A stretch of DNA of 64,000 nt, taken from the NCBI RefSeq assembly GCF_016903815.1, contig NZ_CP069974.1. The stretch is one strand, 5' to 3'. The notes under the pieces were generated by a model, which was not told where the DNA came from, made no database searches, and worked only from the letters and a program-made list of their open reading frames with translations. Shown here piece after piece: positions 1 through 60,776 of the stretch; position 1 is the first letter of the stretch; the number at the start of each line of letters is the position of its first letter. This DNA is from Escherichia coli. Lineage in GTDB: Bacteria; Pseudomonadota; Gammaproteobacteria; Enterobacterales; Enterobacteriaceae. The position numbers were made by a program, and so were the translations under genes.

Positions 1-7
1 CGCCGGT

Positions 8-934
8 GTGGCCTTCGGCAAGCAATTTCCCGAGCAGGGCCCGCTCACTGCTGACAGCTTCTCCGGTGGCGAGGCGACCGTCGTTCCGGCGCTGACGCGG
101 CTCGGGTTTCGCATCATTCGCATCGGCGAAGACTGGTCCGAAGAAGAGGTCCTGGCCACGGTCGAAGACTATTTCGACATGCTGCGTGCCGAGGCGGCTG
201 GGGAGCCGTACAACAAGTCCGAGCACAACCAGGCACTGCGCCAACTGCTGAACGGTCGCAGCAAGTCTTCAGTCGAGCTCAAGCACCAGAACATTAGCGC
301 CGTACTCGATGCCCTGGGCCTGCCCTATATCAACGGCTACAAGCCACGCGGCAACAGCCAACTGCTGCTGCGTAAATCCGTACACGCCTACGTTCTGGAA
401 CATCAGCAGACGGTCGGCGCTCTTGTCGATGCCCTGGAGGAGGTAAAACTTCCGGGTGACAAAACCTACCGAGCGGCTTTGGTAGAACCACCCGCCCGTG
501 AAGTGCTTGTGCGTACCCCGGCATCTCTACGGCAACGCCTACCGCGAAAGTTCGATTATGCCGCTCGCGATGAAGCCAACCGCAAGCTGGGCCGGGCAGG
601 GGAGCAGTGGGTGATTGGCTACGAACAGCAACGCCTGACCGAGCTCGGCCACCCAGAGCTTTTTCAGCGGCTGGATTGGGTGTCCGACACCCAGGGAGAC
701 GGTGCGGGGTTCGACATCCTGTCGTTCGAAGAGGACGCCCATGAGCGCTTCATCGAGGTGAAAACCACCAATGGCGGGGTAGGCTCGTCTTTCTTGGTCA
801 GCCACAACGAACTCGAATTCTCCAAGGAGGCGGGCGATCAATTCCATCTGTATCGCGTGTTCCAGTTTCGGGACGGTCCGCGCCTGTTCACGCTACCCGG
901 CGACCTCAGCCAACATGTGCATCTCAAGCCGACG
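8..934 (+). pseudogene. DUF3883-like domain protein, 3' end interrupted by IS26; 5' end probably outside window
   Basis: ORF 8-961 runs directly into the IS26 left inverted repeat at 935; C-terminal part has the FIEVKTT...SHNELEFS...YRVF pattern I associate with DUF3883; ORF opens on a non-ATG codon at the window edge. Confidence 0.45.
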
Positions 935-1754
935 GGCACTGTTGCAAATAGTCGGTGGTGATAAACTTATCATCCCCTTTTGCTGATGGAGCTGCACATG
1001 AACCCATTCAAAGGCCGGCATTTTCAGCGTGACATCATTCTGTGGGCCGTACGCTGGTACTGCAAATACGGCATCAGTTACCGTGAGCTGCAGGAGATGC
1101 TGGCTGAACGCGGAGTGAATGTCGATCACTCCACGATTTACCGCTGGGTTCAGCGTTATGCGCCTGAAATGGAAAAACGGCTGCGCTGGTACTGGCGTAA
1201 CCCTTCCGATCTTTGCCCGTGGCACATGGATGAAACCTACGTGAAGGTCAATGGCCGCTGGGCGTATCTGTACCGGGCCGTCGACAGCCGGGGCCGCACT
1301 GTCGATTTTTATCTCTCCTCCCGTCGTAACAGCAAAGCTGCATACCGGTTTCTGGGTAAAATCCTCAACAACGTGAAGAAGTGGCAGATCCCACGATTCA
1401 TCAACACGGATAAAGCGCCCGCCTATGGTCGCGCGCTTGCTCTGCTCAAACGCGAAGGCCGGTGCCCGTCTGACGTTGAACACCGACAGATTAAGTACCG
1501 GAACAACGTGATTGAATGCGATCATGGCAAACTGAAACGGATAATCAACGCCACGCTGGGATTTAAATCCATGAAGACGGCTTACGCCACCATCAAAGGT
1601 ATTGAGGTGATGCGTGCACTACGCAAAGGCCAGGCCTCAGCATTTTATTATGGTGATCCCCTGGGCGAAATGCGCCTGGTAAGCAGAGTTTTTGAAATGT
1701 AAGGCCTTTGAATAAGACAAAAGGCTGCCTCATCGCTAACTTTGCAACAGTGCC
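935..1754 (+). mobile_element. IS26 (IS6 family), complete 820 bp
   Basis: Terminal inverted repeats GGCACTGTTGCAAA at 935-948 and TTTGCAACAGTGCC at 1741-1754; internal 234-aa Tnp26 ORF. Confidence 0.95.
998..1702 (+). CDS. tnpA: IS26 transposase Tnp26
   Basis: Protein MNPFKGRHFQRDIILWAVRWYCKYGISYRELQEM... matches Tnp26 from memory; 234 aa from ATG at 998. Confidence 0.95.
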   Translation: MNPFKGRHFQRDIILWAVRWYCKYGISYRELQEMLAERGVNVDHSTIYRWVQRYAPEMEKRLRWYWRNPSDLCPWHMDETYVKVNGRWAYLYRAVDSRGRTVDFYLSSRRNSKAAYRFLGKILNNVKKWQIPRFINTDKAPAYGRALALLKREGRCPSDVEHRQIKYRNNVIECDHGKLKRIINATLGFKSMKTAYATIKGIEVMRALRKGQASAFYYGDPLGEMRLVSRVFEM

Positions 1755-4468
1755 CTTTTTTCTGCCTCATACGACGCACGGGAAACCAGCAGACCTGTGC
1801 CATAGCCTTTTGCCACATCCACATACAGTAAGTCACCGCGTTTTATCTGCGCATTGATTTCCCCTCCCAGTTCAGTAAAACCGGTTCCTTCTGCAGCAAA
1901 CGACTTCGCCTCTGTCAGCAGGTCCACCATGCTGAAGGCCAGGTTTTTACTTTCCAGCACAGGAAGGGCCAGATGAATGGCCTGCTGTGCCGGCGTGTGA
2001 AGCCCGGCTTTCTGCAGACTGATAGCGGTTTCCAGCAATGTCTCACCGGCACGCGCCTTTATCTGATCAGAAACCACCGTAAAGGAGGGATGGCGGGCAA
2101 GTTTTTCCGCAGTACGGGGTTCATCCAGCGAGGAATACAGCCGGACATCACGACCACTGCGGGCCAGACCGTTCAGGGTCGCGTTGTCCATCGCCATCTG
2201 TGTGACGGAGGCAAAAACCGTCGCACTGTCGCTGACGGAATGCCCGGGCGTTTCCACCCAGCCGTTCTCCAGCTTCAGTGCCGTGAATGGTGAATCAGCC
2301 ACAGGCAGGGTGGCCGGTTCAGCCCGCCCCGGCACAACAACCGTCATCGCATCTTCACTGACGGATGCCACCTGCAGGCGGTCACCGCCGGAGACGCGGA
2401 GTCCGGGAATTTTCCCTGTCACCCTCAGTCGCTCGCCGTCTGCCACCGGCATTTTTTCCGGCCGGAACAGCGACCAGCTGCTGTCCAGGGAGGAAATACG
2501 CACCACCTGCGTTTCGCCCTGCGCATCCCGCAGGTTCAGGCTGTGACTCTGCGCTGTCACCCGGTCTATCACATAGCGGTCATGACTGCGTGTCTCCGGG
2601 TTCCACTGCTCCATCACCATCCCCGGTCGGTACATATCCCGCAGATAACGGCTCCGGCTGTCCAGCCAGACCGGTGACAGTGCAGTCATGGTCACCTCAG
2701 GGTGTCCGAGCACGCCCTGCGTTTTCAGCTCACTGCGAATGGCCTCTGTCAGTATGGCCTGTTCCCGTACCCCGCTGACCTGTGCCACGCTCTCTTCTCC
2801 GGCTTTCACGCTGGCCGCAAAATCTCCGGCCAGCCGGGCATAGCGGACATTACGGTCCGGTTCACTGATGATGGTGGCCGGTCGCTGTTCTCCCCCCTGC
2901 CAGCGATATGTGTTCACCCCGGCATCCTTCATGGCCATCAGTGCACTGCCTGTACCGGTTCGCTGCCCGCTGTCGGTTATCAGGACCTGTACGTTATGAC
3001 GTGCGGCACCATCCAGCAGGGTTAACGTCTCTTTCAGGGAGAGTTTTTCGCCCTGGTCGACGATAACGGTACTGCCCGGCGGGAAGGCCATGCCTTCCAG
3101 CAACTGACGACGTCCGGTTATCAGTTCACCGGACAGCCGTTCATCCTGCTTCAGGTTCATCTGCGAGCGACGGTCAGCAGCGATAATCTGCACCTCCCGC
3201 CCCTGCTCCCGGGCCATCATGACCAGTTCAGCCACCCGCTCACGCTGCCCGGCTGCACCGCCCTGCCCGGACACAATGGCCAGCGACGGGCGATCCTGTG
3301 CCAGAACACTGACGGCATCGCTGTAACCGGCCGTCCGGGGGACACTTTTCTCCGGATGTACGGTCACCCGGTTCTGTTTCATGATGTCACGACTGAGTGC
3401 CCGGACTGACAGCTCATCGAGCACATGAATCCCGGACGTGAACAGCCCCTTCTCACGATCGAGGGGGATAAGCTGCTCACGGCTGATGGCCTCATCGATA
3501 CCGGCGCGTGCCCGTTCAATCACACCATTTTCCGGCGGCAGTATGCCGACCGTCCTGGCCAGCACGTCCGTATACGTGAACTGCACTTTTCGTTCACTTA
3601 ATCCGGCAATGGCCTGTGTCACCGCCTGCTGCACATCCGGCCCGTCCTGTGAAGCAGGCCCGGGCGCCTGCGTGCGGATCTCCGCACGCTGATCCGCCGC
3701 GTCACGATATGCCCGGATGTCGAACCCGGTTTCCTTCAGCGTCTGCATCCATTCAGCCATTCTGACTTCAGGATCGACGTGCTGTTTGGATTTACGCGTA
3801 TCCAGTGCCGCCACATCCCGGGATTTCAGCGAGGCGTCTTCACCGACGGCCTCCCGGATAGCCTGTGAGCGTCCGGAGAAGGCTTCCACCGGTACGCCCG
3901 GCATCTCCCACATACCGTGCTTACCGACCACTTCGGTTTCATAACCCAGCGCCTCAACGCGCTGACGTAACTCACTCTGATATATTTTCCCGAACGCAAT
4001 CCGGTTCGCGAGCACGTTCTCGGAAAATCCGGTTTTCCCCACTTTGTCACTGCTCAGTGTCTTCCATTCGCCGTTATGCTGCGTGACATTAGCCACCACC
4101 ACATGCGTGTGTAACTGTGGGTCCTGATCGCGACTGGTGTCATGGTTAAACAGTGCCATCACCAGATTACCGGTCAGCACCGTTTCTGACTGTCCGTCCG
4201 TCATCACCCGTGTGGAAGCCAGCGCCTCCACCTGACGGACAGCAAAATCCACAGCCTGGTTATGTGCATCAATAAGACGTTTATCCCCCCCGAGCATGGC
4301 CATCATGGAGACACTTTTGGGGGCGGAGAAGGTCAGGTCGTAGCCGGGACGATGCTTATTACTGCCATCCTGCATGCGGCTTAAATCCGCCCCGTCCGGC
4401 AGCCTGCCCTCCAGAAGACGGGTAAAAACATCCTTATCGACGCTGCCCTGCAGCCCAAGCTGTTCAGC
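1755..4468 (-). pseudogene. traI: traI relaxase/helicase fragment (about residues 36-947), truncated at both ends
   Basis: ORF 1736-4489 matches F TraI from ...[55 protein letters not shown] onward; 3' end cut by IS26, 5' end fused to a traD fragment. Confidence 0.85.
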
Positions 4469-4643
4469 CCCCTGAACGGAAAAAAGCACGGGTGTTCATG
4501 ACGTCAAACAGCGTGGCCGCCGCTTTCTCACCGTAGATATCTTCCAGCTGGGCATAGGACTGGATACCAAACACATAACAGCCACCGAACTTACGGGCTT
4601 CCGGCAGGATCTCCACCAGGTCCGGCAGTTTGTGTAACGTGGG
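4469..4643 (-). pseudogene. traD: traD internal fragment (coupling protein), deletion remnant
   Basis: Minus-strand translation [52 protein letters not shown] matches an internal TraD segment; flanked by traU and traI fragments. Confidence 0.7.
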
Positions 4644-4809
4644 TACCCTGGCTGACTTTGATACTGCCCAGCGAGAGCGGGAAAATACAGCTCCAGCAGA
4701 TATCCGTGATCGGGTTTACAAAACGCCCCTCACAGGCAGAATCCGCAGACGCCGCAGGGACATGACCGGCGAGAAGGAATAACATCAGCAGCCACAGTCT
4801 TCGCTTCAT
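4644..4809 (-). pseudogene. traU: traU 5' fragment (signal peptide plus first ~55 codons)
   Basis: [55 protein letters not shown] matches the TraU N-terminus, then the frame runs into traD-derived sequence. Confidence 0.75.
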
Positions 4810-5150
4810 TTTCTGCCCTCCTCTGCCGGAATAAATTCCACCTTCAGGAAGCGATCGCCGGGAACGGCGCTCACCCGTGCCGGGACCTGATCAATGCCGA
4901 GGCGCTGGCAGAGCACACCGTTCTGGTCAAAGTAAATACGGCTGTCCAGCGCTTTCTGCATCTCCGGGATACTGCCCTGCACGAGGATAATTTTGCTCTC
5001 CAGTGTGGGCGGCGTCTGGCGTTTCATCCAGGCCACCTGCGCCGGATCATCGCCATTGATGAAATACAGCGTCTGGTTAAAAGGAACATACTGCAGCGGA
5101 TTCATCACTTCACCCTGACGGGCAAACACCCGCCCTTCGTTATCCCGGAT
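4806..5150 (-). pseudogene. traW: traW 3' fragment (C-terminal ~100 codons), N-terminal part deleted
   Basis: IRDNEGRVFARQGEVMNPLQYVPFNQTLYFINGDDPAQVAWMKRQTPPTLESKIILVQGSIPEMQKALDSRIYFDQNGV... matches the TraW C-terminus; the upstream part of ORF 4806-5384 is out-of-frame traC sequence. Confidence 0.7.
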
Positions 5151-7467
5151 ACAGCTGGTTGTATTTTGCGAACTCCTTCGCACTCTGTTTGAGGATAATT
5201 TTGTAGGAGGAGTTACCCCATGCCGCACGGGCCGCACTGGAGGCCTTGTCAGAGTCAAAGTCGACGATGTTCTGTGTGATGGTGATATAAGCACCGGTAT
5301 GACGACGGGCGGTACGGTAACCTTTCTCAATAAACTCACCGACCTTGTAATTTTTGAAGTCCAGCAGACGCCAGCCTTCATCAATGACGTTCAGTTTCTT
5401 GAGGTTACGCGGCGTGCGGTACATCCTGTTCTCGATGTAGATAATCAGGGAGAACATCACCGCAACCAGCAGTGACGGACGGTCTTCCAGTCCGCCCAGC
5501 TCCAGCACCACCATTTTTGCGTCATCCCGCAGGGACGGCTCATCAGAGTTAAAATACTGACCGTAAGTGCCGTTGGCAGTGTACTGGTCAAGCAGCACAA
5601 TCATTTCGTCCAGACGGCTGCGGATAGTCGGTGACCCGGCATACTGCTCGCTGTCACTGGCGTTTTTCAGGAAATCCACCACGTCATCAATACGTGCCCT
5701 GTTCTCTTTGGCCAGCCAGGAGGCCCTGACCGCCTGCAGCAGCAGACCTTCATGCACTTCATCCAGGTTACCGTTGGGGCTGGCCATCACTGACAACTGG
5801 TCACGGACACGCTCCGCTGACTGGTCGATATCGGTGATATTCGCAAACGGGTTAAAACGCAGGGTTTCACCGTCCAGATATACGCCACCCATGTTCTCAC
5901 ACAGGGACTTGTAGCCATCCCCCATGTCGAACACCACGGCAAAGCCCCCGGAGTCCAGCACGCTGCGGATAAGGGGCTGTATCAGTCCGGTTTTACCGGC
6001 CCCGGAGGTGCCACAGACCGCCATGTTGTAGTTGGTGTTATTCATCCCCCGGAAGAAAATATCGATAAACGCCAGCTGGTTACGGTAGGTGGGTGCCAGC
6101 AGACCTGCCGGTGTCAGGGGGTTATCCGCCACTAACGGCATCAGGTTGGCAACATTAAAGCTCTCTGCGCGCTGAACCACACCGGCCTCTTTCAGCTGTT
6201 TAAACAGCCCTTTCCCGGCCATAAAGGGCAGGCAGGTCAGGAAATTGCGCATGTGGTTAAAGCGCGGTGAAATCAGCTCAAAACCGTTTTTACGGAAGCT
6301 GTTCAGGATGTCCTGCTCCACTTCCAGTGCCGTTTCATTATTGTCCTTGCAGAAGGCTGTGATGTTGAGGAAGTAGGACACGACAGAAGACTGACCGGAG
6401 CCCAGCCGCTGACGCAGTTCCCCCCACTCCTTCGCCTCTTTCTCCACGGACGGAAACCATTTGGCATAGGAGGTCTTCGACTTTTTCTCCAGGTCCATGT
6501 ACTTCAGGTTGGCTTCGCTGTGGGTTTTCACCTGGTCTTCCACCACCAGAGTCAGCGTCAGGATGAACGGACAGGAGATGGACAGTTCCGGGTTCAGCAG
6601 GTTGCTGTAGTTGTCGGCCATATTCCACAGGAAGGCGATTTCCGGGTTACGGGCCAGATGGAAATTCAGGATGCGGGCCGTGCTGTTCCTGCCGTTCTCA
6701 CGCAGGCCCAGCGTCAGGTAATCAGCCCGGACTTTCAGGTCAAAACTGTCCTCCACACACTGATAATTCAGATCAGAATACGGGTCCAGCTGACGTCTTT
6801 TCGGGTACAGGGAGTCCGGGTTATGATTAATCATCTCCCCGACAATATCGATAAAGGCCTGTGCATCCACCGTCTGTGTGGCGATACTGGCCCCCTGTAA
6901 CGACGCCCGGATGATTTTCACCAGGTTTTCCATTTCCAGAATGTCAGCCCGGCTTTTTTTCTTCGAGGGAGAACAGTACGAGAAGAATACCCGGTAATGG
7001 CGCAGGGTCAGGGGCAGATTCATCCCCTCCGGCAGCGGAAACTGTGTCGCTGCCGCGTTCATATAATAGGCACGGGTAATGGCGTTAAACCGTTCAGCCT
7101 GTTCACCGGACCAGGAGAACTCACGCAGCCCGTATTCAATTCTGTCACCAACAAGCTGGCTGGACTTCAGATGGATGCAGAACGGCACTCCGCGTGGCAG
7201 TTTGGTGCGCAGCATGTGGTCGAGCGCCTCCACAATGGACTCATTCGCCCCATTGATGGGAATGGCTTCCAGCATAAAGCCCATCGTGGTGTCATTCATG
7301 AACAGACCGGACTCCTGGTTGTAATCACGGTACGGCAGCAGACGGCTGAACTGCGGGAAGCTCATTTCGCCCAGAACTTCATTGGCCTTTGCGGATTCGT
7401 CAGGCAGTTTCAGTGCTGTGACGAGGGAGTTAACCGCCTGAGTGACGGCCTCAAGTGGGTTATTCAC
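5140..7467 (-). CDS. traC: TraC (VirB4-like pilus assembly ATPase), C-terminally truncated at 775 aa by deletion
   Basis: MNNPLEAVTQAVNSLVTALKLPDESAKANEVLGEMSF... matches F TraC; ORF stops at ...KYNQLYPG where the traW fragment begins; no room for trbI. Confidence 0.8.
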   Translation of the reverse strand: MNNPLEAVTQAVNSLVTALKLPDESAKANEVLGEMSFPQFSRLLPYRDYNQESGLFMNDTTMGFMLEAIPINGANESIVEALDHMLRTKLPRGVPFCIHLKSSQLVGDRIEYGLREFSWSGEQAERFNAITRAYYMNAAATQFPLPEGMNLPLTLRHYRVFFSYCSPSKKKSRADILEMENLVKIIRASLQGASIATQTVDAQAFIDIVGEMINHNPDSLYPKRRQLDPYSDLNYQCVEDSFDLKVRADYLTLGLRENGRNSTARILNFHLARNPEIAFLWNMADNYSNLLNPELSISCPFILTLTLVVEDQVKTHSEANLKYMDLEKKSKTSYAKWFPSVEKEAKEWGELRQRLGSGQSSVVSYFLNITAFCKDNNETALEVEQDILNSFRKNGFELISPRFNHMRNFLTCLPFMAGKGLFKQLKEAGVVQRAESFNVANLMPLVADNPLTPAGLLAPTYRNQLAFIDIFFRGMNNTNYNMAVCGTSGAGKTGLIQPLIRSVLDSGGFAVVFDMGDGYKSLCENMGGVYLDGETLRFNPFANITDIDQSAERVRDQLSVMASPNGNLDEVHEGLLLQAVRASWLAKENRARIDDVVDFLKNASDSEQYAGSPTIRSRLDEMIVLLDQYTANGTYGQYFNSDEPSLRDDAKMVVLELGGLEDRPSLLVAVMFSLIIYIENRMYRTPRNLKKLNVIDEGWRLLDFKNYKVGEFIEKGYRTARRHTGAYITITQNIVDFDSDKASSAARAAWGNSSYKIILKQSAKEFAKYNQLYPG

Positions 7468-7626
7468 ATGAATTCCTTAGTTGAAAAATAAAGCGAGAAA
7501 TGCGGTAGCCATGAAGGGAATACCTGTAATTAACGCGCCATTTCCCGGCGCATATACAAAGATTTCGGTTTTCTGAATATCAACTCATGTTCATCCGGAA
7601 TTAAATCAATATGTTCTGCGACTGAC

Positions 7627-7848
7627 TTATGCATAATGTTTTCTCTGCTTTTCCTGATACGCCTGACATTCAACGCACAACGTCACACCGGGAAATATTT
7701 TCCGCCGGGCTTCCGGAATAGGATTTCCGCATGCTTCACAGAGATAAACAGGAATACCATGAACATTTATTTTCTGGCGTATCCGGTTTATTCCTGTCAT
7801 GGTCAGTTGTTCTGTCACTGAATATGCTTCATCGGCTTCATCACTCAC
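7627..7848 (-). CDS. traR: TraR
   Basis: 73 aa MSDEADEAYSVTEQLTMTGINRIRQKINVHGIPVYLCEACGNPIPEARRKIF... matches F TraR. Confidence 0.85.
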   Translation of the reverse strand: MSDEADEAYSVTEQLTMTGINRIRQKINVHGIPVYLCEACGNPIPEARRKIFPGVTLCVECQAYQEKQRKHYA

Positions 7849-7982
7849 GGAATATTCCTCCCGACATGTTCTGACACGCTACCGCCCATCCCTTTTCACG
7901 CACAGGGCACTCGTTTTACAGGCAGATTTTGAATACAGAAAGCCCGCCGGCATTGCCGGCTGATATACAACTTCAGGGCCAG

Positions 7983-8498
7983 TTAATTAATACGTGGTTT
8001 TCCCCACGCAGACGGTTTAATAACAAAAAACACACTGGATGGCTGATGATAAACATCCTGATTATCAATATAAGGCGCTATCCATAATGCAGCCGTCTGC
8101 TCACCCGTTCTTAGCGGGCGGGGAGGTGTTACCGGCGCAACTGAACTGACCGGAACAATCGTTTTCACTTCCCGGGCAGCCGTAAACAACGGACGTGGTG
8201 CCAGCAGTTTCTGCTCCGGAAGTGCCGTCACCGCAGGTCTGCTGCCGGACGGAGGGGTCGCGGTGACGGTCTGCACCGGCATTGTCCGGAAGTTCCCTTC
8301 AGCCAGGCGCGGCAGTGATGCCGCAACCGGCTTTGCTTCTGAGGACTGCTCCAGTTCTTTGGCCTTCTCATTGGCCTGCTCCATCGTCATACAGGTATCG
8401 GATGTGGTGGCGTTACACTCAAATTCCGTACTGGTTCCGGCACAGCCGGAAAGTAATAACGTTCCCAGCAGAGGAATAAATAAAGAAATCTGTTTCAT
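7983..8498 (-). CDS. traV: TraV lipoprotein
   Basis: 171 aa, lipobox LLSGC, matches F TraV; position between traR and traP region. Confidence 0.8.
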   Translation of the reverse strand: MKQISLFIPLLGTLLLSGCAGTSTEFECNATTSDTCMTMEQANEKAKELEQSSEAKPVAASLPRLAEGNFRTMPVQTVTATPPSGSRPAVTALPEQKLLAPRPLFTAAREVKTIVPVSSVAPVTPPRPLRTGEQTAALWIAPYIDNQDVYHQPSSVFFVIKPSAWGKPRIN

Positions 8499-8857
8499 TA
8501 CCCTTCTCCTTTTTTATTACTCTCCACAACAGCAGAAATTAACTCTACTGTCAGATTTGTTTTTCCTGCACAGGGTTGTCCGGAGACTACTGTATTTCCC
8601 GGAGAAGAAAATAAGCTCATCGACATACCCTTCTTCATCACACCGACAGCTGCCATATTAAAATTGTGCGGCAATGATTCAGAACCGAATTCCTTCAGTG
8701 CAGGAAGTACGATTCTTGTGGTGCAGTTACTGAGAACAGCATTCATAAAATCATCTGATACGCTTTTATCCGGTACAGAGCGTGCAGTAATAATATTACG
8801 CATGTTCATTTTTATCTCCGTTGTTTCTGTTTGCCCTGTCATCAGGGAAATAAACAT
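8498..8857 (-). CDS. small ORF in the trbD/trbG position of the F tra operon
   Basis: Position between traP and traV as in F; identity of the product not verified. Confidence 0.35.
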   Translation of the reverse strand: MFISLMTGQTETTEIKMNMRNIITARSVPDKSVSDDFMNAVLSNCTTRIVLPALKEFGSESLPHNFNMAAVGVMKKGMSMSLFSSPGNTVVSGQPCAGKTNLTVELISAVVESNKKGEG

Positions 8858-9383
8858 GGCATTTCCTGATTTTTTCCGACAGAGAAGTATCTTCCGTATA
8901 AACTTCCTTCAGATGTTCATCTGCGGTTCCCACCCGGACACATTTCATTTTTCCGGGTCGCACCGGATATTTCCCGGTGATCGCTGCCAGCGAGACATAC
9001 ATCAGTGCCAGTGTTGCCCAGAATGCGGTGACCAGTTGCATCAGTGACCGGTCAGTCTCCCTGACATAATCTGCAGCATCAGCCGCGCGGTAATGGCAGA
9101 TATCCTGTATTTCTGATCTGCCTGAAGAATCAGAGGAAGAAAACCAGCATTCACTGACCGGGAACTGTCCGGCAGGTGCTGTTTGTCTTACGAAGTTAAT
9201 CTCCTTAACCAGTAATTTCCCCGGCGTGGTGTTGTCCTTCCATAAAACAAACAGAGCCATCAGGGCCATTGTGGCCAGCGGCCAGATAACCACAAACCTG
9301 ACGACCCACAGCAGCCAGCGAACGACAAACGCCACACGGAATGTCAGTGCATCACCCGCCATTTCCGCCCTCCTTGCCGGCAT
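8796..9383 (-). CDS. traP: TraP
   Basis: 195-aa hydrophobic protein in the traP position downstream of traB; length matches F TraP. Confidence 0.55.
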   Translation of the reverse strand: MPARRAEMAGDALTFRVAFVVRWLLWVVRFVVIWPLATMALMALFVLWKDNTTPGKLLVKEINFVRQTAPAGQFPVSECWFSSSDSSGRSEIQDICHYRAADAADYVRETDRSLMQLVTAFWATLALMYVSLAAITGKYPVRPGKMKCVRVGTADEHLKEVYTEDTSLSEKIRKCHVYFPDDRANRNNGDKNEHA

Positions 9384-10803
9384 CCCCGCCCTGCGGGTTC
9401 TTGTCTCCGGACATAAACTGCTGCGGATTCAGATTGCCCAGCTGCTTCAGCATCTGGTCGGTGTTAAAACCGTTCAGGTGGCTTTCTGCCGAGGGAGGAT
9501 TCGGCACAGGGCTTTCCGGGTTACCCTCTTCCGCTGTACTCTGTGACTGCTCCAGCGCCATTTCCTCCACGGTTTTCAGCTGGAAGCCGTCCTGGAACAC
9601 CACTGTCACTTCGTTGCCCGCACCAATCGGTATCACCGGGTGATACTGTTCGGCACGTTTGATGTAGTAGTCACTGAGCGTCTGTGCGGCTTTCGATGCG
9701 CCGCCACCGATACCCATTTTAAGGACATCGCCGGCCCCGTAAGCGGCTGTGGCACCCAGCCCGACAGCCGGCTGGGAGGCGCGCTCCATTCCCTGACCGA
9801 TACCGTCAACAAATCCCGCGCCCCATGCCCAGCCGAGGATTTTGCCGTTACGCATCACCACTTCGCCCTTGATACCGTTTTTACCCCGGAAGCTGACATG
9901 CCCCTTAATCGGCATATCAATGGTTTTGCCATTCTTCAGGCAGCTGATATTACGGGTGCGAACAATAGCACGTTCACTGGAGACATCCCCCCAGGCTTCC
10001 AGCCCCACAAAACATCCCGTTGCGTCATACGTCTTGCTGTTCGGCATTTCCACCAGACCGGTGATACGCAGCTGCATCGGCACCGTGGATTCATTACCGG
10101 TGACTGAGGCATTGGCATCCGCCCCTTCAATCAGCATGGCTTTCGCAAAACTTCCTGACGGAATGTACGGCAGCGATGGTCCCTGTTTTCCCTCATTACG
10201 GGTAAACACCTTACGCTGTATCCGGTTAGGCACCGGCACAGACTGGTACATCACCTGTGGTGGTGGCGTGACACCATTCCCGGGATAAAACGCCGTCGGC
10301 GGTGGAACAGCAACGCTGCCCTGCGGCGGGAAGGATACGGGGGTGTTTCCCGGCTGTGGTTCGCCTTCCGGCCCGGGCGGTGAGGCTGGCGTCTGCGGTA
10401 CAGGCTCACCGGTCGCCGTGACGGGATTAGCACCCAGGGCTTTTACCTGCTCTGCCAGGGCGGCATTGTCCTGTCCCAGTTTTTCAATACGACGCTGGTC
10501 ATCACCGCGCTGTTTGTTCAGGACATCCAGTTCACGACGGATTTCCTCATACTGCTTCTGCATCTGCGCTGCCGTCACCTGCATCTCTGTGGTGGCATGC
10601 TGACGCACCTTGTCATCAAAGGTCGTATCCACCACACCGGTCATATCCGGCACAGGCTCCTGTTCAGCCACGGTTTCCCCGTTACCGGACATGTCCACAT
10701 CAGACAGATACAGTGCCCCACCAATCGCGGAGGCTGTACCGACAACCACAATCCCCAGCCACAGGTACTGCTTGCGTTTCACAATGGTGTTGATACTGGC
10801 CAT
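9352..10803 (-). CDS. traB: TraB (VirB10-like)
   Basis: Pro-rich middle region and conserved C-terminal domain; matches F TraB. Confidence 0.85.
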   Translation of the reverse strand: MASINTIVKRKQYLWLGIVVVGTASAIGGALYLSDVDMSGNGETVAEQEPVPDMTGVVDTTFDDKVRQHATTEMQVTAAQMQKQYEEIRRELDVLNKQRGDDQRRIEKLGQDNAALAEQVKALGANPVTATGEPVPQTPASPPGPEGEPQPGNTPVSFPPQGSVAVPPPTAFYPGNGVTPPPQVMYQSVPVPNRIQRKVFTRNEGKQGPSLPYIPSGSFAKAMLIEGADANASVTGNESTVPMQLRITGLVEMPNSKTYDATGCFVGLEAWGDVSSERAIVRTRNISCLKNGKTIDMPIKGHVSFRGKNGIKGEVVMRNGKILGWAWGAGFVDGIGQGMERASQPAVGLGATAAYGAGDVLKMGIGGGASKAAQTLSDYYIKRAEQYHPVIPIGAGNEVTVVFQDGFQLKTVEEMALEQSQSTAEEGNPESPVPNPPSAESHLNGFNTDQMLKQLGNLNPQQFMSGDKNPQGGDAGKEGGNGG

Positions 10804-11531
10804 CAGTTGCCCTCCCCGTCACGGATGACATACACATCCATGCACGCACCTGCCAGTAACTGGCTGGCAGGCTGGCTGAACATCACGGCACGGGTTCCCG
10901 GCTGCCAGAAGTCACTTTCCCGGATATTCAGGGCAGACAGCGTTTTATTTTCCACGGCAAAGCGGACCATCTTCAGGTGATTCCCCGTCCATACGGCATC
11001 TGCCACTGAAGACAGCCCCGCCGGGGCCTGCAGGGTTTCCTTTGTCACAGGAACCTGATACCAGCCTGCAGGTAATTTTCCGCCACGGACAGCCTGGCTG
11101 ATGGTCACAAGCAGGGATTCGTAAGGCGTGGACGTTTCCCACGCACCGGCTTCTTCTCCGGTTCCGCGCAGGTCACTGACCAGCTGAATGGTACGCCCCG
11201 CGCCTTCACGGGGAACGGCCTGAATGGAAAGATTCAGACCACGTTCTGTTTCCAGAATGAACGTAAAGGGCTTTTTGTTGACGGTGGCAACCACCACACC
11301 GCCGGAGGCGGTCTGCTCATTATTGGTCAGGGCACCATCCAGACTGTTCACGGCGATAATCCGGTCACCGGGAACGGTAAACAGATTCGGGCTGGTATTG
11401 CTGATGGCAATACTGGCCTGACCACCGTTCACCATTGGCACCACGGTGGGGGACAGCGTACCGTTTGCGGCCATCACGCTGCAGGAAAAAAACAGGCTGC
11501 CGAATATTATTGCCGTATTATTTTTTCTCAT
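10803..11531 (-). CDS. traK: TraK (secretin-like)
   Basis: 242 aa with signal peptide; matches F TraK; operon position. Confidence 0.85.
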
Positions 11532-16784: not shown

Positions 16785-16810
16785 CCTGCTTTCTCCTCTC
16801 TCTGGTTTTC

Positions 16811-17392
16811 AGCCCCCATCATCTGTTGAGTTTCGGGAGCCGCGGTTTTGACGTTTTGCGGGGACCTGCCTTTTGTTCCCTCCGGTATTCACCATCACCT
16901 TTTTGAGAACCTTCGCCGCAAGGGGCATCACTGCCACGGACGGAAACGACTGTCCGGGGGCAGACCGCAAAAGTTTTTGCCTGCTTCTGGGCAAAAAGTT
17001 TTGCGGGATGTGCATTTCACCCCTGGACTGGCGGAGACGGTTGTGGCTGTCTTTGCCCCCGGCGACAGGGGCTTAAACAGGTGAATGGCACCGGACAGAA
17101 CAACGGGCAGGGACCCGCCGCAACGACGTGAAGCGCGGTTTGCGAAACGGCGTTGCCCCTTACATCCCGGCGGTCTTTTGCCGGGATGCCAGGAGCGCAG
17201 GCCACGGCGCGACAGAGGCGGCGCGACCGGAACGGTCGCTGCAAGCCAGGGGTTTTCACGCATCGGACCGTAGCGACAGCCCGAAACCGCGCCAGCGGGT
17301 TCGGCGGAGACTGGCAGGTGCGCCAGCAGCTGCCTGTCGGAGTCGGGCCTGACGACCGGATGCCGCCAGGCAGCCGGGAGCCGAAGGTGCGC
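16811..17392. repeat. GC-rich structured repeat copy 1 (candidate Frpo/ssi-type ssDNA promoter), abutting intron copy 1
   Basis: ~0.57-kb sequence repeated at 28596-29177 (near-identical) and 34285-34848 (diverged in the first ~250 nt); sits ~27 nt upstream of the orf95 start on the minus strand; multiple hairpins, e.g. GCGACCG-GAA-CGGTCGC. Confidence 0.45.
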
Positions 17393-19776
17393 GTGCGACA
17401 GGAAGTCGCTTAACGTATTGTTTTACATTGATAAAACCAGCTATCCCATTAGCTGTAGCCTACCGGGACAGGCGTTGCCGGCAACGGCGGGGTCTGAAGC
17501 TCCCGGGACAACGAGAGCCGGGCGTCAGCCCGGGTAATGCCCCGTGAGGGGCTTTACCTTGCTGCAAGCATCATGCGGCAGGAGAGCAAGGCTGGTCAGA
17601 AGGGTTAACACATGTGAACTGTTGATAAACACCGTTATCGGCAACAGGCCAAAGATGCTGACAGGCCTGAACCAAAAGGTACGGGGTCCGGTTGCTACCT
17701 CGCGCACAGGGAGCACATGGGCGCAGAGACCCCCGGTGAAGAGACAGAACCCGCCCTGACCCTCTGTATGTTAAGCGGAACCTGGTAAACCCGTATCGCT
17801 GCCTCACAGGCAGGTGAACCGCAAGGAACACTGTTAGCGGTGCGGGCATAGGAGGACGGAAAAAGCGAATGCCCGGCTGTAATAACCGGGATACGGGGCA
17901 GGTTCCCCGACGCGAAAGCGGGCAGACTTCCGTCTGGTCTTTAATTGCATGAAAAGCTGTAAAGCAGTCAAAAGGATATCAGCGAGATGAATACACACAT
18001 CAGTGTGTCCACGATACCCCACCCGACAGGCTGGCACACCATAAACTGGAAAGCATGCCATGCCCGGGTGCGAAAGCTACAGTTACGGATTGCAAAGGCA
18101 ACCCGACAGCAACAATGGCGGCAGGTCAGAGAACTACAGCGCATCCTCACCCGCTCATTCTCCGGCAAAGCCGTGGCTGTCAGGCGTGTAACTGAAAATA
18201 CCGGTAAAAGGACACCCGGTATTGACGGAAAAATATGGCACACACCGAAGGAGAAATGGGAAGGAATATGCAGCCTGAATCTGTGTGGTTACAGGCCACA
18301 GCCACTACGGCGAATACATATCCCAAAATCAAACGGCAAAACGCGACCGCTGGGCATACCCACAATGAGGGACCGGGCCATGCAGGCACTGTGGCTGCTG
18401 GCTCTGGAACCCGTATCCGAGACCACTGCTGACCATAACAGCTATGGTTTCAGACCAATGCGCAGCACGCATGACGCCATTGAGTCCATTTTTCTGCGGA
18501 TGAGCCAGAAAGTATCGCCCAAATGGATACTGGAGGGCGATATTAAAGGGTGCTTCGATAACATCAGCCATGACTGGCTGCTTTCCCATATTCCGATGGA
18601 CAGGAGACTGCTTAAAAAATGGTTGAAAGCAGGTTACATGGAAAGAGGCGTGTTTAACCATACGAACAGCGGGACACCGCAGGGAGGCATCATATCCCCT
18701 GTTCTCGCCAACATGGCTCTGGACGGACTGGAGAAGGAACTGATGCAAACGTTCAGGAAAAGTGGTTATCACAGTGCAAAGCACCAGGTGAATTATGTGA
18801 GATATGCTGATGATTTCATCTGTTCAGGCAGCTCCCGTGAATTGCTGGAAAATGAGGTCAGACCACTGATTGCAGCTTTCATGCGCGAACGAGGGCTGGA
18901 ACTGTCGGAAGAAAAAACAGCGATCACACATATAGATAAAGGCTTCGACTTTTTAGGGCAGAACGTCAGGAAGTACAACGGTAAAATGCTGATTAAACCG
19001 TCGAAGAAAAACCTGAAGAACTTCCTCTGTAAAGTCAGAGAAATAATTAAACGCAATCCGACGCTCCCGGCATGGAAACTGATAGGCCAGCTAAACCCGG
19101 TGATCCGGGGATGGGCTACCTATCACCGACACGTCGTGGCGAAAGAAACATTTAATTATGTCGACACCCAAATCTGGCGAGCTATATGGCGATGGTGTGT
19201 AAGACGGCATCCCCGGAAAGGATTGCGGTGGATCGCCGGACGATACTTCTCCTTTGAAGGCAGGCGCTGGATCTTTAAAGCCATAACCCCGGAAGGGAAA
19301 ATTCTGACACTCTTCCGGGCAATGGAAACACCGATAAAGCGCCATATAAAAATCAAAGGCGAAGCAACACCATACACCCCCGGAATGGAAATCTACTTTG
19401 AACGTCGTCTGGATCTAATCTGGAAAGGCAAATCAAAGAAGATGAAGACAGTAGTTCAACTCTGGAAGAGGCAGGGGAAACACTGTCCGCAGTGCGGACA
19501 ACTCATAACCAACCAGACCGGATGGAATATACATCACCGGATCAGGAAAGTTATGGGCGGCAGTGACGAACTGACCAATCTCGAGTTGTTACATCCGAAC
19601 TGCCACCGACAGTTACACAGCAGGGAAGCCGGTGCTCACCGAAAGCACTTATAAAGGCTTGAGCGGAGTGCGGGGAAACTCGCACGCTCCGTTCTTAGGG
19701 GGCGGCGGCGCAGCAATGTGCCGCTGCTACCCGACCCGGCAGACAGGACAACACTGCAGTAGTCAGAATCAGAGCA
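17393..19776 (+). mobile_element. group II intron copy 1 (RT-maturase-HNH IEP); 3' boundary approximate
   Basis: Starts GTGCGACAGGAAGTCGC; 555-aa IEP in domain IV; domain V-like hairpin GAGCGGAGTGCGGGGAAACTCGCACGCTCCGTTC at 19661-19694; identity with copies 2 and 3 extends to ~19776, true 3' splice site probably within 19735-19776. Confidence 0.75.
17987..19654 (+). CDS. group II intron-encoded reverse transcriptase/maturase with HNH endonuclease domain
   Basis: RT motifs (GTPQGGIISP, YVRYADDF), maturase region, C-terminal CPQCG...HH...HPNCHRQLH. Confidence 0.9.
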   Translation: MNTHISVSTIPHPTGWHTINWKACHARVRKLQLRIAKATRQQQWRQVRELQRILTRSFSGKAVAVRRVTENTGKRTPGIDGKIWHTPKEKWEGICSLNLCGYRPQPLRRIHIPKSNGKTRPLGIPTMRDRAMQALWLLALEPVSETTADHNSYGFRPMRSTHDAIESIFLRMSQKVSPKWILEGDIKGCFDNISHDWLLSHIPMDRRLLKKWLKAGYMERGVFNHTNSGTPQGGIISPVLANMALDGLEKELMQTFRKSGYHSAKHQVNYVRYADDFICSGSSRELLENEVRPLIAAFMRERGLELSEEKTAITHIDKGFDFLGQNVRKYNGKMLIKPSKKNLKNFLCKVREIIKRNPTLPAWKLIGQLNPVIRGWATYHRHVVAKETFNYVDTQIWRAIWRWCVRRHPRKGLRWIAGRYFSFEGRRWIFKAITPEGKILTLFRAMETPIKRHIKIKGEATPYTPGMEIYFERRLDLIWKGKSKKMKTVVQLWKRQGKHCPQCGQLITNQTGWNIHHRIRKVMGGSDELTNLELLHPNCHRQLHSREAGAHRKHL

Positions 19777-20048
19777 GGAAGAAAAAGAGAATAATCACAG
19801 GGAAGGTGATGTGATTTCTGACAGGCCATAACCAGAGAAGGCGGGGGAAAAGAACGGGCGCCGCAGGCGCGCGTTCATCCCCGTTCCTGAAGGGAAACGA
19901 CCTTCCTGAAGTCAGGTTGTTCATGCCCGTACAACATCAGCAAGGAGAAAGGGGCTACCGGCGAACCAGCAGCCCCTTTATAAAGGCGCTTCAGTAGTCA
20001 GACCAGCATCAGTCCTGAAAAGGCGGGCCTGCGCCCGCCTCCAGGTTG

Positions 20049-20313: not shown

Positions 20314-21165
20314 TTAAACACGAGGCATATAGGTCTGATTCCGATATTCAATTGGAGTCAGACCTTTTAATTTCAGGCTAATTCTTCTGCTGTTGTAGTA
20401 TTCAATATATTCCGTAACAGCATCCTTCAGTTCGCTTATATTACTGAACTCATCAAGATAAAAACACTCCGACTTTAAGGTTCCAAAGAAACACTCCACC
20501 ACAGCATTATCCAGACAATTGCCTTTTCTGGACATGCTTTGTTTAATACCATGTTCTTTAAGGATATTTTGATATCTTCTCATACGATACTGCCATCCCT
20601 GGTCAGAGTGCAGAACAGGATGCTCGTGAGGATTAAGCTTTTTGAATGCCTGATCGAGCATATTCTCAACCATGTTCATCACTGGTCTTTCCGAAAGGCT
20701 GTAAGAAATAACTTCGTTGTTGAAGAGATCTATTACTGGAGACAAATACAGCTTGCGCCCATTGACTGCAAATTCAGTAACATCGGTAACCCACTTCTCG
20801 TTTGGCCGCGTAGCCTTGAAATCTCTTTGGAGAACATTAGGGGCGGTTTGCCCTACCTCTCCTCTGTAAGAGCGGTATCGCTTGACCTTAATCGCTGCTT
20901 TAAGTGAGAGGGTTCCCATCAGGCGCTGAACAGCTTTATGGTTAATCTGTTTCCCTTCTCGATGAAGAGACAGCGTTACCCTACGGTATCCGTATCGGCC
21001 TCTATTCTCGTGATAAATCTCACTAATACGCTTTTTAACGTCCGCATACTTGTCAGGCTTGCTGAGAGCCTTTAGATGATAATAAAACGTACTGCGCGGT
21101 ATCTCCGCAGCCCTGAGAAGCTCATCAAGAGGATAAAACTGCCTTAGCTCGTTGAGTACTTTCAC
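20314..21165 (-). CDS. insK: IS150 OrfB (InsK) transposase catalytic part
   Basis: 283 aa with DDE integrase-like region; overlaps orfA as in IS3-family frameshift arrangement. Confidence 0.85.
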
Positions 21166-21683
21166 TTTTTCGTGGGATGAGCTAAGGCTTTCAGCTTTTT
21201 TAGATACATAAGCCGCGTTTCAAGAAATCGAACTTGCCTTTCAAGATCCTCAATGCGTCGGTCTTTTGACAGCTCCAATGCTGATGCCGCTTTTTCTGGA
21301 TCAACTGATATTGCAATGTTTCTTTTGGTGCCAATCTTGAGCGCGCGTAAACCAGCTTCTCCGCGCTCTTCATAGACCTTCAGCCACCTGGCTACAGAAC
21401 CACTACCAGCAAGCATAAAGTGAGCAGCAGCCTGATTAAGGGACATGTGCTGCTCGATCACAGCTTTCACGACCTTAATACGCAACTCTGGATCAGCACT
21501 AACGCCTTTAGGTTTGGGAATTAAACCTTTTTCTCCATGTTTTTCATAGAGGGCAACCCATGTCCTGACCTGGGTTCGGGGGACACCAAAACGTGCCGAG
21601 ATGATCCTGTAACCATCATCAGTTGTGAAGTAGTGATTCACGACTTCAAGGCGCTTTTCAAAAGGGTATTTTGGCTTTGACAT
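21162..21683 (-). CDS. insJ: IS150 OrfA (InsJ)
   Basis: 173 aa MSKPKYPFEKRLEVVNHYFTTDDGYRIISARFGVPRTQVRTWV... HTH, leucine-zipper-like C-terminus. Confidence 0.85.
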   Translation of the reverse strand: MSKPKYPFEKRLEVVNHYFTTDDGYRIISARFGVPRTQVRTWVALYEKHGEKGLIPKPKGVSADPELRIKVVKAVIEQHMSLNQAAAHFMLAGSGSVARWLKVYEERGEAGLRALKIGTKRNIAISVDPEKAASALELSKDRRIEDLERQVRFLETRLMYLKKLKALAHPTKK

Positions 21684-28568: not shown

Positions 28569-28595
28569 GATGTGCCTCCTTCTGTTGATGTTTTC

Positions 28596-29177
28596 AGCCC
28601 CCATCATCTTTTGAGTTTCGGGAGCCGCGGTTTTGACGTTTTGCGGGGACCTGCCTTTTGTTCCCTCCGGTATTCACCATCACCTTTTTGAGAACCTTCG
28701 CCGCATGGGGCATCACTGCCACGGACGGAAACGACTGTCCGGGGGCAGACCGCAAAAGTTTTTGCCTGCTTCTGGGCAAAAAGTTTTGCGGGATGTGCAT
28801 TTCACCCCTGGACTGGCGGAGACGGTTGTGGCTGTCTTTGCCCCCGGCGACAGGGGCTTAAACAGGTGAATGGCACCGGACAGAACAACGGGCAGGGACC
28901 CGCCGCAACGACGTGAAGCGCGGTTTGCGAAACGGCGTTGCCCCTTACATCCCGGCGGTCTTTTGCCGGGATGCCAGGAGCGCAGGCCACGGCGCGACAG
29001 AGGCGGCGCGACCGGAACGGTCGCTGCAAGCCAGGGGTTTTCACGCATCGGACCGTAGCGACAGCCCGAAACCGCGCCAGCGGGTTCGGCGGAGACTGGC
29101 AGGTGCGCCAGCAGCTGCCTGTCGGAGTCGGGCCTGACGACCGGATGCCGCCAGGCAGCCGGGAGCCGAAGGTGCGC
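28596..29177. repeat. GC-rich structured repeat copy 2 (candidate Frpo/ssi-type ssDNA promoter) immediately upstream of ssb
   Basis: Near-identical to 16811-17392; begins ~28 nt upstream of the ssb start codon on the minus strand. Confidence 0.45.
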
Positions 29178-31561: not shown

Positions 31562-31577
31562 GCAGGAAAAAGAAGAA

Positions 31578-33815: not shown

Positions 33816-34046
33816 TCAGTTAAAAGCGCGTTTCAGTTCGAGTGTGCGGAGCACCTGCCCGAAGGCCGTGTTTTTCATGGCGGGGATGTGTACACCACGC
33901 CCCCGGTGAAAACTCCGGGCAATGTGTCGCCCGAAGGCTTTCAGCACGGGGTCAATTTCCGGCGCGGGGATGTCTTCGCGTCTGAAACGGGGATGACGGC
34001 GGGGCTTTACAGCCGCTGCGGAAGGTGAAACAATACTTACTGTCAT
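33816..34046 (-). CDS. small hypothetical leading-region protein (76 aa)
   Basis: ORF downstream (minus strand) of repeat copy 3; no motif recognised. Confidence 0.35.
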   Translation of the reverse strand: MTVSIVSPSAAAVKPRRHPRFRREDIPAPEIDPVLKAFGRHIARSFHRGRGVHIPAMKNTAFGQVLRTLELKRAFN

Positions 34047-34284
34047 AATTTAGCCTCTTATGACGTTAATTAATGAAACCGTAAAGACTGTTCGTGCAGT
34101 CTCTGCGGTGTGGATTAAGCAGGTCCCTGACCTGCTTTTTTCATATCTGCGTCTGACGTTCTCCGGTGTTTTCCTCCTTCTGTTCCTGCGTTCTCATTAC
34201 CTGCCAGCCGGATGACTGACAGAACACATAAATGCGTATTGCCGGAGCCTGAAATAAATCCTGATTTTTAAAGAACATCACCCG

Positions 34285-34848
34285 TTGAGTTTCGGGAGCC
34301 GCGGTTTTGACGTTTCGCGGGAACCTGCTGCTGTATACCCTGTGGTATGAACTTCACCCGTTTGAGAACCTTCGCCGCAAGGGGCATCACTGCCACGGCC
34401 TGACGCACCTGTCCTGGGCAGAACGCAAAATTTTTTACCGGGTTTTGGGTAAAAAATTTTGTGGGCTGTTCATTTACCCTGGACAGTCAGTGCGGCAGGT
34501 TGTGGCTGTATCAGCCCCAGGCGACAGGGACTCATACGGGTGTGTGGCACCGGCAGGCAATGAGCAGGGACCCGCCGCAACGACGGAGAGCGCGTGCGCG
34601 AAACGGCGTTGCCCCTTACATCCCGGCGGCCTTTTGCCGGGATGCCGGGAGCGCAGGCCACGGCGCGACAAGGGTGGCGCGACCGGAACGGTCGCTGCAA
34701 GCCCGGGGTTTTCACGCATCGGACCGTAGCGACAGCCCGAAACCGCGCCAGCGGGTTCGGCGGAGACTGGCGGGTGCGCCAGCAGCTGCCTGTCGGAGTC
34801 GGGCCTGACGACCGGATGCCGCCAGGCAGCCGGGAGCCGAAGGTGCGC
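34285..34848. repeat. GC-rich structured repeat copy 3 (diverged 5' part)
   Basis: Homologous to 16825-17392; first ~250 nt heavily substituted, remainder near-identical; abuts intron copy 3. Confidence 0.45.
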
Positions 34849-37233: not shown

Positions 37234-37423
37234 CAGATAAAGGAACAACAACATCAGGAACAGTTCCATAACATAAGAAAGAAACACTCCTGAGTCAGAC
37301 ACATCACAGACGGGAAGGGTAACGGGCGACGCGCCAGCGTGGCCCGCTTCCCTTCCGGCAGGCGTCAGCCTGCCAGGGGTTTTCGCGCGGACTGACAGGC
37401 GGCCTCCACCGCCTGCCCCTGTA

Positions 37424-59200: not shown

Positions 59201-59203
59201 ATC

Positions 59204-60272: not shown

Positions 60273-60776
60273 TTACTGATAGTGTTTTATGTTCAGATAA
60301 TGCCCGATGACTTTGTCATGCAGCTCCACCGATTTTGAGAACGACAGCGACTTCCGTCCCAGCCGTGCCAGGTGCTGCCTCAGATTCAGGTTATGCCGCT
60401 CAATTCGCTGAGTGTAACGCTTGCTGATTACGTGCAGCTTTCCTTTCAGGCGGGATTCATACAGCGGCCAGCCATCCGTCATCCATATCACCACGTCAAA
60501 GGGTGACAGCAGGCTCATAAGACGCCCCAGCGTCGCCATAGTGCGTTCACCGAATACGTGCGCAACAACCGTCTTCCGGAGCCTGTCATACGCGTAAAAC
60601 AGCCAGCGCTGGCGCGATTTAGCCCCGACGTATCCCCACTGTTCGTCCATTTCCGCGCAGACGATGACGTCACTGCCCGGCTGTATGCGCGAGGTTACCG
60701 ACTGCAGCCTGAGTTTTTTAAGTGACGTAAAATCGTGTTGAGGCCAACGCCCATAATGCGGGCTGTTGCCCGGCAT
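60273..60776 (-). CDS. insB: IS1 InsB
   Basis: 167 aa matching IS1 InsB. Confidence 0.9.

What the first reader, a model, noticed from the sequence alone, without database searches (positions are those of the whole stretch)
935..1754. IS26 joins an unrelated DUF3883-like gene to traI with no target-site duplication
The 8-bp sequences flanking IS26 differ (…GCCGACGG on the left, CTTTTTTC… on the right) and the two flanks are unrelated genes, both truncated. This is the signature of IS26-mediated deletion or cointegrate resolution rather than simple insertion. It marks a backbone/accessory junction.
Basis: seen in the sequence. Interest (0 to 1): 0.3.

Follow-up and report, generated by a model that had tools for sequence, protein, structure and literature searches.

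The report
IS26 edge of resistance island in traI
This is an ordinary IS26 copy forming the right-hand edge of an IS26-bounded gentamicin-resistance segment that sits inside the conjugation gene traI of an E. coli F-type plasmid. Its "missing" 8-bp duplication is expected, because in the closest relatives the matching copy lies beside the IS26 at the other edge of the segment.

Summary
A complete IS26 lies at 935-1754 (820 bp, perfect 14-bp inverted repeats, the only copy in the window).

The left flank is the 3' end of a DUF3883/NOV_C gene. The right flank is an internal traI fragment on the minus strand.

Both junctions already exist elsewhere:
- **DUF3883|IS26** is the fixed end of the widespread aac(3)-IId-tmrB module. 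It is base-for-base identical in all 13 other copies examined.
- **IS26|CTTTTTTC-traI** occurs in four near-identical F plasmids. In the three whose far boundary I checked, a second, directly oriented IS26 4.9 or 24.3 kb away is preceded by the rest of traI ending in the same CTTTTTTC. An intact traI carries that octamer once.

So the target duplication brackets the whole IS26-bounded region, not this single copy. No deletion of traI is needed to explain the junction. The mate lies left of the window and cannot be seen here.

The element is the IS26-v1 (Tnp26 G184N) variant. No searched record holds this exact three-part combination, but the biology is textbook IS26. Low interest.

The parts
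1..934 (+). 3' 934 bp of the DUF3883/NOV_C gene, the last gene of the aac(3)-IId-tmrB module. The window starts inside the gene. The native reading frame ends at codon T367 (932-934).
   Evidence: 100% identical to pMB9880_1 L005 9427-10360 and p253 L002 5302-6235. Pfam NOV_C E=1e-21 with the model complete at 1-90/91. Native homologues are 378 aa.
927..934 (.). Left 8-bp flank AGCCGACG (the inner flank of the resistance segment).
   Evidence: The same octamer abuts IS26 in all 13 other copies of the module examined.
935..1754 (+). IS26, variant IS26-v1 (A459, AA613-614; Tnp26 G184N). IRL is 935-948 and IRR is 1741-1754.
   Evidence: The variant definition comes from PMC9412624.
998..1702 (+). 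tnp26 (234 aa), with Asn at codon 184.
   Evidence: Translation; codon 184 = AAC.
1755..1762 (.). CTTTTTTC, the right-hand copy of the 8-bp target-site duplication in traI. Its mate is expected beside another IS26 to the left of the window.
   Evidence: Duplicated on the outer sides of the two boundary IS26 in CP020519 (L003 7914-7921 and 12831-12838) and in pMB9880_1 (L005). It is single in intact traI (L006 4001-4008).
1755..4479 (-). Internal traI fragment (nt 101-2825 of the 5271-nt gene, about codons 34-942).
   Evidence: blastn and tblastn against pEc184__IncF traI. RefSeq annotation of the identical segment in relatives reads 'missing N-terminus and C-terminus'.
4474..7467 (-). Decayed tra remnants joined by three deletions: traD fragment 4474-4645, traU'-'traW 4644-5151, and traC lacking its 3' end 5145-7467.

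Best explanation
This IS26-v1 is the right-hand boundary copy of an IS26-bounded resistance segment: a pseudo-compound transposon or IS26 array carrying at least aac(3)-IId-tmrB-orf-orf-DUF3883'. The segment is embedded in traI of an IncFII/FIA/FIB E. coli plasmid.

Shown:
- Both junctions pre-exist elsewhere.
- In the closest relatives the 8-bp target duplication CTTTTTTC lies on the outer sides of the two boundary IS26 copies.
- An intact traI has a single copy of that octamer at this site.

Inferred: an IS26-v1 copy-in event duplicated CTTTTTTC in traI. This was either the whole aac(3)-IId pseudo-compound transposon entering by cointegrate formation and resolution, or a lone IS26-v1 that later received the aac(3)-IId translocatable unit by the Tnp26 targeted conservative reaction or by RecA recombination. 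Either route places unrelated DNA on the inner side of each boundary IS26, so neither copy is individually flanked by a repeat.

The window appears to keep the full right end of the canonical module. Its sister plasmids have changed only the inner flank:
- CP020519 has a 2,284-bp deletion adjacent to the IS26, reaching into tmrB.
- pMB9880_1 has about 17 kb of extra IS26-bounded modules (mph(A), sul2-strAB, blaTEM-1) inserted at this same IS26.
For: 1. IS26 identity and ends are established.

2. Window 1755-64000 is collinear with CP020519 85348-120667 plus 1-26925 at 99.8-100% identity. The backbone is therefore the same lineage.

3. In CP020519, CP020496 and CP103763 both outer junctions are present in the same orientation...GAAGAATACTTTTTTC|IS26 and IS26|CTTTTTTCTGCCTCAT....

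4. The empty site GAAGAATACTTTTTTCTGCCTCATACG occurs once in intact traI of pEc184__IncF.

5. pMB9880_1 carries DUF3883'|IS26 as an internal junction of the same traI-embedded island.

6. The boundary IS26 copies in the relatives are IS26-v1, like the window's copy. The internal copies in pMB9880_1 are standard IS26.

7. DUF3883'|IS26 is invariant in p253, in pMB9880_1 and in 10 of 10 other genomic places. Across those places seven different right flanks follow the IS26, and none shows a duplication.

8. The inner flanks differ between the relatives by 52 bp and 2,284 bp, while the outer flanks are constant.

9. Published mechanism: copy-in duplicates the IS and 8 bp, with the duplication surrounding the whole insertion (PMC7885326). 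IS26 arrays need not carry flanking repeats (PMC7986276).
Against: The left boundary (the second IS26, the traI 3' part, traX and finO) is not in the window. The mate of the duplication is therefore inferred from relatives and not seen in this replicon.

No record in PLSDB or in the complete E. coli genomes holds the three-part combination DUF3883'-IS26-traI, so the arrangement has no independent confirmation.

The direction of evolution relative to pMB9880_1 (ancestral form versus a deletion derivative) is not resolved.
Confidence: 0.8

Rival explanations
1. Secondary loss. The source descends from a pMB9880_1-like island (DUF3883'-IS26-mph(A)...blaTEM-1-IS26v1-traI). About 17 kb was then lost by recombination (RecA or Tnp26) between two directly oriented IS26 copies, fusing the two junctions onto one IS26.
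For: pMB9880_1 and p98210 contain both junctions, about 17 kb apart, on direct IS26 copies. The identity to CP103763 is 100% over the shared backbone.
Against: The window IS26 carries all three v1 markers, so a crossover would have to fall within the first 458 bp. CP020519, whose simple island has two v1 copies and no trace of the extra modules, fits the simple form being ancestral. This rival is compatible with the main explanation, because IS26 is still the island boundary and the duplication still lies at the far end.
Confidence: 0.25
2. IS26-mediated adjacent (cis) deletion. An IS26 at the end of the aac(3)-IId module attacked traI and deleted everything in between, including the 3' half of traI.
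For: The flanks are unlike, and traI is truncated at the junction. The traI 3' part, traX and finO are not found in the window. Such deletions do happen in this lineage on the inner flanks.
Against: It would require the attack to land on exactly the nucleotide and orientation at which four relatives have an IS26 insertion with a proper 8-bp duplication. IS26 has little target specificity, so an independent coincidence is very unlikely.
Confidence: 0.05
3. Assembly artefact. The assembler collapsed or mis-joined IS26 repeats, skipping modules that lie between two IS26 copies.
For: The exact three-part join is absent from 72,556 plasmids and 5,426 E. coli genomes. An 820-bp identical repeat is a classic site of mis-joins.
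Against: The arrangement is the simplest biologically expected one: the canonical module end lies next to the lineage's boundary IS26. The rest of the window is perfectly collinear with a finished plasmid. There are no sequence anomalies at the junctions.
Confidence: 0.07

Closest known systems
IS26-v1 (IS26 variant, Tnp26 G184N; IS6/IS26 family)
   Same: 820 bp with 14-bp perfect inverted repeats and a single 234-aa transposase. It shows the three diagnostic nucleotide differences from standard IS26 (A459, AA613-614).
   Different: Nothing at the sequence level. This copy is not individually flanked by an 8-bp repeat, which is usual for IS26 copies in arrays.
IS26-bounded aac(3)-IId-tmrB-...-DUF3883' module (pseudo-compound transposon / translocatable unit), as in p253 and pMB9880_1
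   Same: The last 934 bp and the DUF3883'|IS26 junction are 100% identical, and the IS26 orientation is the same.
   Different: Only the right end is visible in the window. Here the IS26 copy is v1, as in p253; in 10 other contexts and at the internal pMB9880_1 junction it is standard IS26.
traI-embedded resistance islands of E. coli IncFII/FIA/FIB plasmids CP020519/CP020496 (strains 222/103) and pMB9880_1/p98210
   Same: They share an identical IS26|CTTTTTTC-traI junction, an identical decayed tra region and a 99.8-100% identical backbone.
   Different: The inner neighbour of the IS26 differs. It is tmrB' in CP020519 (2,284 bp deleted), blaTEM-1 in pMB9880_1/p98210, and DUF3883' here.

Membership tests
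IS26 (IS6/IS26 family) | 820-bp element with 14-bp perfect terminal inverted repeats GGCACTGTTGCAAA | tested here: met
IS26 (IS6/IS26 family) | Single tnp26 gene (234 aa) with near-identity to the reference IS26 | tested here: met
   100% identity to IS26 in at least 5000 plasmids. Translation. Three nucleotide differences from standard IS26, which defines IS26-v1.
IS26 (IS6/IS26 family) | 8-bp target-site duplication flanking the individual copy | tested here: not met
   AGCCGACG versus CTTTTTTC. This feature is not required for IS26 copies in arrays (PMC7885326, PMC7986276).
IS26 pseudo-compound transposon / IS26-bounded resistance island | Two directly oriented IS26 copies bounding the passenger DNA | not testable with these tools
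   There is only one IS26 in the window, and the window starts 934 bp to its left. The feature is met in relatives CP020519, CP020496 and CP103763.
IS26 pseudo-compound transposon / IS26-bounded resistance island | 8-bp duplication on the outer sides of the boundary IS26 copies, with the target gene reconstructable | tested here: inconclusive
   The right half (CTTTTTTC, 1755-1762) is present. The left half is outside the window. Both halves are present in the relatives, and a single copy is present in intact traI.
F-type traI (MOBF relaxase/helicase) | Sequence identity to F-like TraI | tested here: met
   99.7% amino-acid identity to residues 36-944 of the 1756-aa TraI of pEc184__IncF. It is a pseudogene fragment only.
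aac(3)-IId-tmrB module | Terminal DUF3883/NOV_C gene truncated by IS26 at ...AAGCCGACG|GGCACTG | tested here: met
   Identical junction in p253, in pMB9880_1 and in 10 of 10 other places. aac(3)-IId itself lies outside the window.

The most novel reading that the evidence does not exclude
The window preserves a configuration not present in any searched record: the undeleted right end of the aac(3)-IId module directly abutting the lineage's traI boundary IS26-v1. If this is the ancestral state, then together with CP020519 (inward adjacent deletion) and pMB9880_1/p98210 (accretion of standard-IS26 units at the same IS26-v1) it forms a natural series. That series would document how the hyperactive IS26-v1 boundary copy remodels only its inner flank while the outer, duplication-bearing flank stays fixed.
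Probability: 0.5. Interest if true: 0.15.

Novelty: already known. Interest (0 to 1): 0.1.

Why it matters
This matters mainly for annotation. An IS26 without its own 8-bp repeat should not be read as evidence of a deletion until the outer flanks of neighbouring IS26 copies have been checked.

The junction locates the boundary of an aminoglycoside-resistance island in a clinically common E. coli F-plasmid lineage. That lineage's transfer region is already non-functional. The finding also adds one more configuration to a set of sister plasmids that differ only on the inner flank of IS26. It opens no new biological question.

Tried and rejected
1. **Looking for the source record or any record with the whole DUF3883'-IS26-traI join.** None covers 80% or more of a junction-spanning query in PLSDB or in the complete E. 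coli genomes. An exact look-up of the 375-aa fusion protein returned only other contexts.

2. **The 12 extra bases matched left of IS26 in CP020519 (query from 224).** Reading the sequence shows this is a chance BLAST extension: ctcaacgagggg versus ctcaagccgacgg, lying in tmrB. It is not a DUF3883 remnant.

3. **Two-piece hits (CP023854, CP147531, CP076699, MK295830 and others).** I checked CP023854 only. There traI runs through this site and is cut by IS26 at a different position, so it is not the same junction. The others were not examined and are not counted as the same junction.

4. **Searching the window for the other half of the duplication, the traI 3' part, traX and finO.** No hits.

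5. **An inversion signature (GAAAAAAG next to an inverted IS26).** This cannot be tested, because the window holds only one IS26.

6. **Counting how many plasmids carry each junction.** Only full-length junction hits were counted.

Full report
**Observation**

The sequence at 935-1754 is a complete IS26. It is 820 bp long, with GGCACTGTTGCAAA at 935-948 and its perfect inverted copy at 1741-1754. Those are the only two matches in the 64-kb window, where 0.03 would be expected by chance. The element is 100% identical over its full length to IS26 in at least 5000 plasmids.

tnp26 runs from 998 to 1702 on the + strand. Compared with the standard IS26 copies in pMB9880_1, this copy has A459 and AA613-614, so codon 184 is AAC (Asn). 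That is the published IS26-v1 variant: three nucleotide differences, two of which cause Tnp26 G184N, reported to have enhanced activity (PMC9412624).

The 8 bp to the left are AGCCGACG (927-934). Either way there is no direct repeat around this copy.

**The left flank**

Window 1-934 is the 3' part of a DUF3883/NOV_C gene. It occurs at 99% identity or better in 1,173 PLSDB plasmids from many genera. It is 100% identical to the last gene of the module IS26-aac(3)-IId-tmrB(AAA ATPase)-orf-orf-DUF3883'-IS26 in p253 and pMB9880_1.

Native homologues in Stutzerimonas and Pseudomonas (85-90% identity) are 378 aa long. The plasmid copy keeps 367 native codons and then reads GTVANSRW* from the IS26 end. 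Its Pfam NOV_C domain is complete. The gene is therefore truncated, but by only about 11 codons.

The exact 375-aa fusion protein is indexed in 5,104 blocks of the public collection. In all 10 places retrieved, the junction AGCCGACG|IS26 is identical while the DNA after the IS26 varies, with six different right-hand octamers and none matching the left flank. This truncation is an old, inherited feature of the module. It is not an event on this plasmid.

**The right flank**

Window 1755-4479 (minus strand) is nt 101-2825 of a 5,271-nt F-type traI, at 99.7% amino-acid identity. IS26 cuts the gene at codon 942 of 1756. The first about 33 codons are missing because of a separate deletion that fuses traI to a 172-bp traD fragment. 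That fragment is followed by a traU'-'traW piece and by a traC that lacks its 3' end.

Window 1755-64000 is collinear with E. coli plasmid NZ_CP020519.1, positions 85348-120667 plus 1-26925, at 99.8-100% identity. The backbone is therefore a known IncFII/FIA/FIB lineage.

**Where the duplication went**

The exact junction IS26|CTTTTTTCTGCCTCAT occurs as a single aligned piece in CP020519, CP020496 and CP103763 (pMB9880_1) in PLSDB, and additionally in CP173527 among the complete E. coli genomes.

All three PLSDB plasmids also carry ...GAAGAATACTTTTTTC|IS26 in the same orientation. It lies 4.9 kb upstream in CP020519 and CP020496, and 24.3 kb upstream in CP103763. In each case it is preceded by the 3' 2.45 kb of traI, then traX and finO.

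An uninterrupted traI in pEc184__IncF reads GAAGAATACTTTTTTCTGCCTCATACG, with a single CTTTTTTC. CTTTTTTC is therefore a genuine 8-bp target duplication, and it brackets the whole IS26-bounded segment. traI is reconstructable across that segment.

This is what IS26 copy-in chemistry predicts. The IS and 8 bp are duplicated, and the duplication surrounds the whole inserted molecule (PMC7885326). IS26 copies in arrays need not carry their own repeats (PMC7986276).

**Relation to the sister plasmids**

- **pMB9880_1.** The island reads traI3'-IS26v1-ISVsa5'-aac(3)-IId-tmrB-orf-orf-DUF3883'-IS26-mph(A)-mrx-mphR-IS6100-IS26-strBA-sul2-repC-IS26-...-blaTEM-1-IS26v1-traI5'. The window's join is that structure without the about 17 kb between the second and the last IS26.
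- **CP020519.** The right IS26-v1 abuts a truncated tmrB. Its inner segment equals the first 3,217 bp of the 5,501-bp module plus 52 bp at the left end that pMB9880_1 has lost.

The outer flanks are therefore constant, and the inner flanks vary by deletions adjacent to IS26 and by the addition of units. Both boundary IS26 copies are v1 in the relatives, as is the window's copy, whereas the internal copies in pMB9880_1 are standard IS26.

This fits an original IS26-v1-bounded aac(3)-IId unit in traI (the window-like form), with later accretion of standard-IS26 units. A deletion derivative with a crossover within the first 458 bp of IS26 is not excluded.

**Limits**

The window begins 934 bp to the left of the IS26 and contains no second IS26, no traI 3' part, no traX and no finO. 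The mate of the duplication is therefore inferred from relatives and not observed in this replicon.

No record in PLSDB or in 5,426 complete E. coli genomes has the three-part join. A mis-join across the 820-bp repeat is thus formally possible, although the arrangement is the simplest one expected.

**Verdict**

This is a backbone/accessory junction made by IS26 cointegrate-type chemistry, but it is not the scar of a deletion. The apparently missing duplication is the normal state of a boundary IS26 in an IS26-bounded resistance island.

Everything here (IS26-v1, the aac(3)-IId module end, and the traI insertion site) is already represented in public records. Only the combination is new, so interest is low.

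Noticed in passing
window 17437-19735, 29222-31520, 34893-37191 (+ strand); 25869-27916 (- strand): There are three copies of one group II intron (Rfam D1-D4-7 plus domain V; ltrA WP_012372796-type) in the plasmid leading region. Each sits inside a repeat of about 2.98 kb (16805-19791, 28590-31577, 34276-37250; 96.6-99.1% identical), so the flanks are repeated too. A fourth, different group II intron on the minus strand interrupts ssb. These copies explain the AT-skew spikes in the composition profile.
   Followed up: partly
window 4474-7467: The tra operon is decayed by three internal deletions with short overlaps at the joins (4474-4479, 4644-4645, 5145-5151): traC'-'traW, traU'-'traD and traD'-'traI. 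trbI, trbC through traG, traS and traT are gone. The plasmid cannot be self-transmissible, even though PLSDB/MOB-suite labels its relatives 'conjugative'.
   Followed up: yes
window 1-934 (gene continues left of the window): The DUF3883/NOV_C gene that travels with aac(3)-IId matches the PADLOC candidate anti-phage defence family PDC-S36 (E=6e-104, model 4-274/280). It also has a ScoMcrA_N-type N-terminal domain. It is nearly full length (367 of 378 codons), and its closest native homologues are chromosomal in Stutzerimonas and Pseudomonas. It may be a still-functional defence gene hitch-hiking with a resistance module in thousands of genomes. No solved structure matches it by sequence.
   Followed up: partly
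window 58205-60136 and 61184-64000: By transfer of annotation from the 100%-identical CP020519 segment, this region holds a SMODS nucleotidyltransferase plus an S-4TM effector (a CBASS-like pair). An IS1A follows at 60273-60970, then a type I restriction hsdR that runs off the window end.
   Followed up: no
window 20314-21683: An IS150 copy lies between the hok/mok locus and psiA in the leading region. It is shared with relatives.
   Followed up: no
L019 (NZ_CP023854.1 p2_0.1) 6555-10941: A different IS26-v1 boundary lies inside traI at another position (3,618 bp of the traI 3' end retained). traI is therefore a recurrent edge of IS26 resistance islands in related F plasmids, through independent events.
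   Followed up: partly
window 34041-34140: Rfam hit to AS-pc01 (antisense RNA to pHK01_035), 98.9 bits, in the leading region just upstream of the third intron copy.
   Followed up: no
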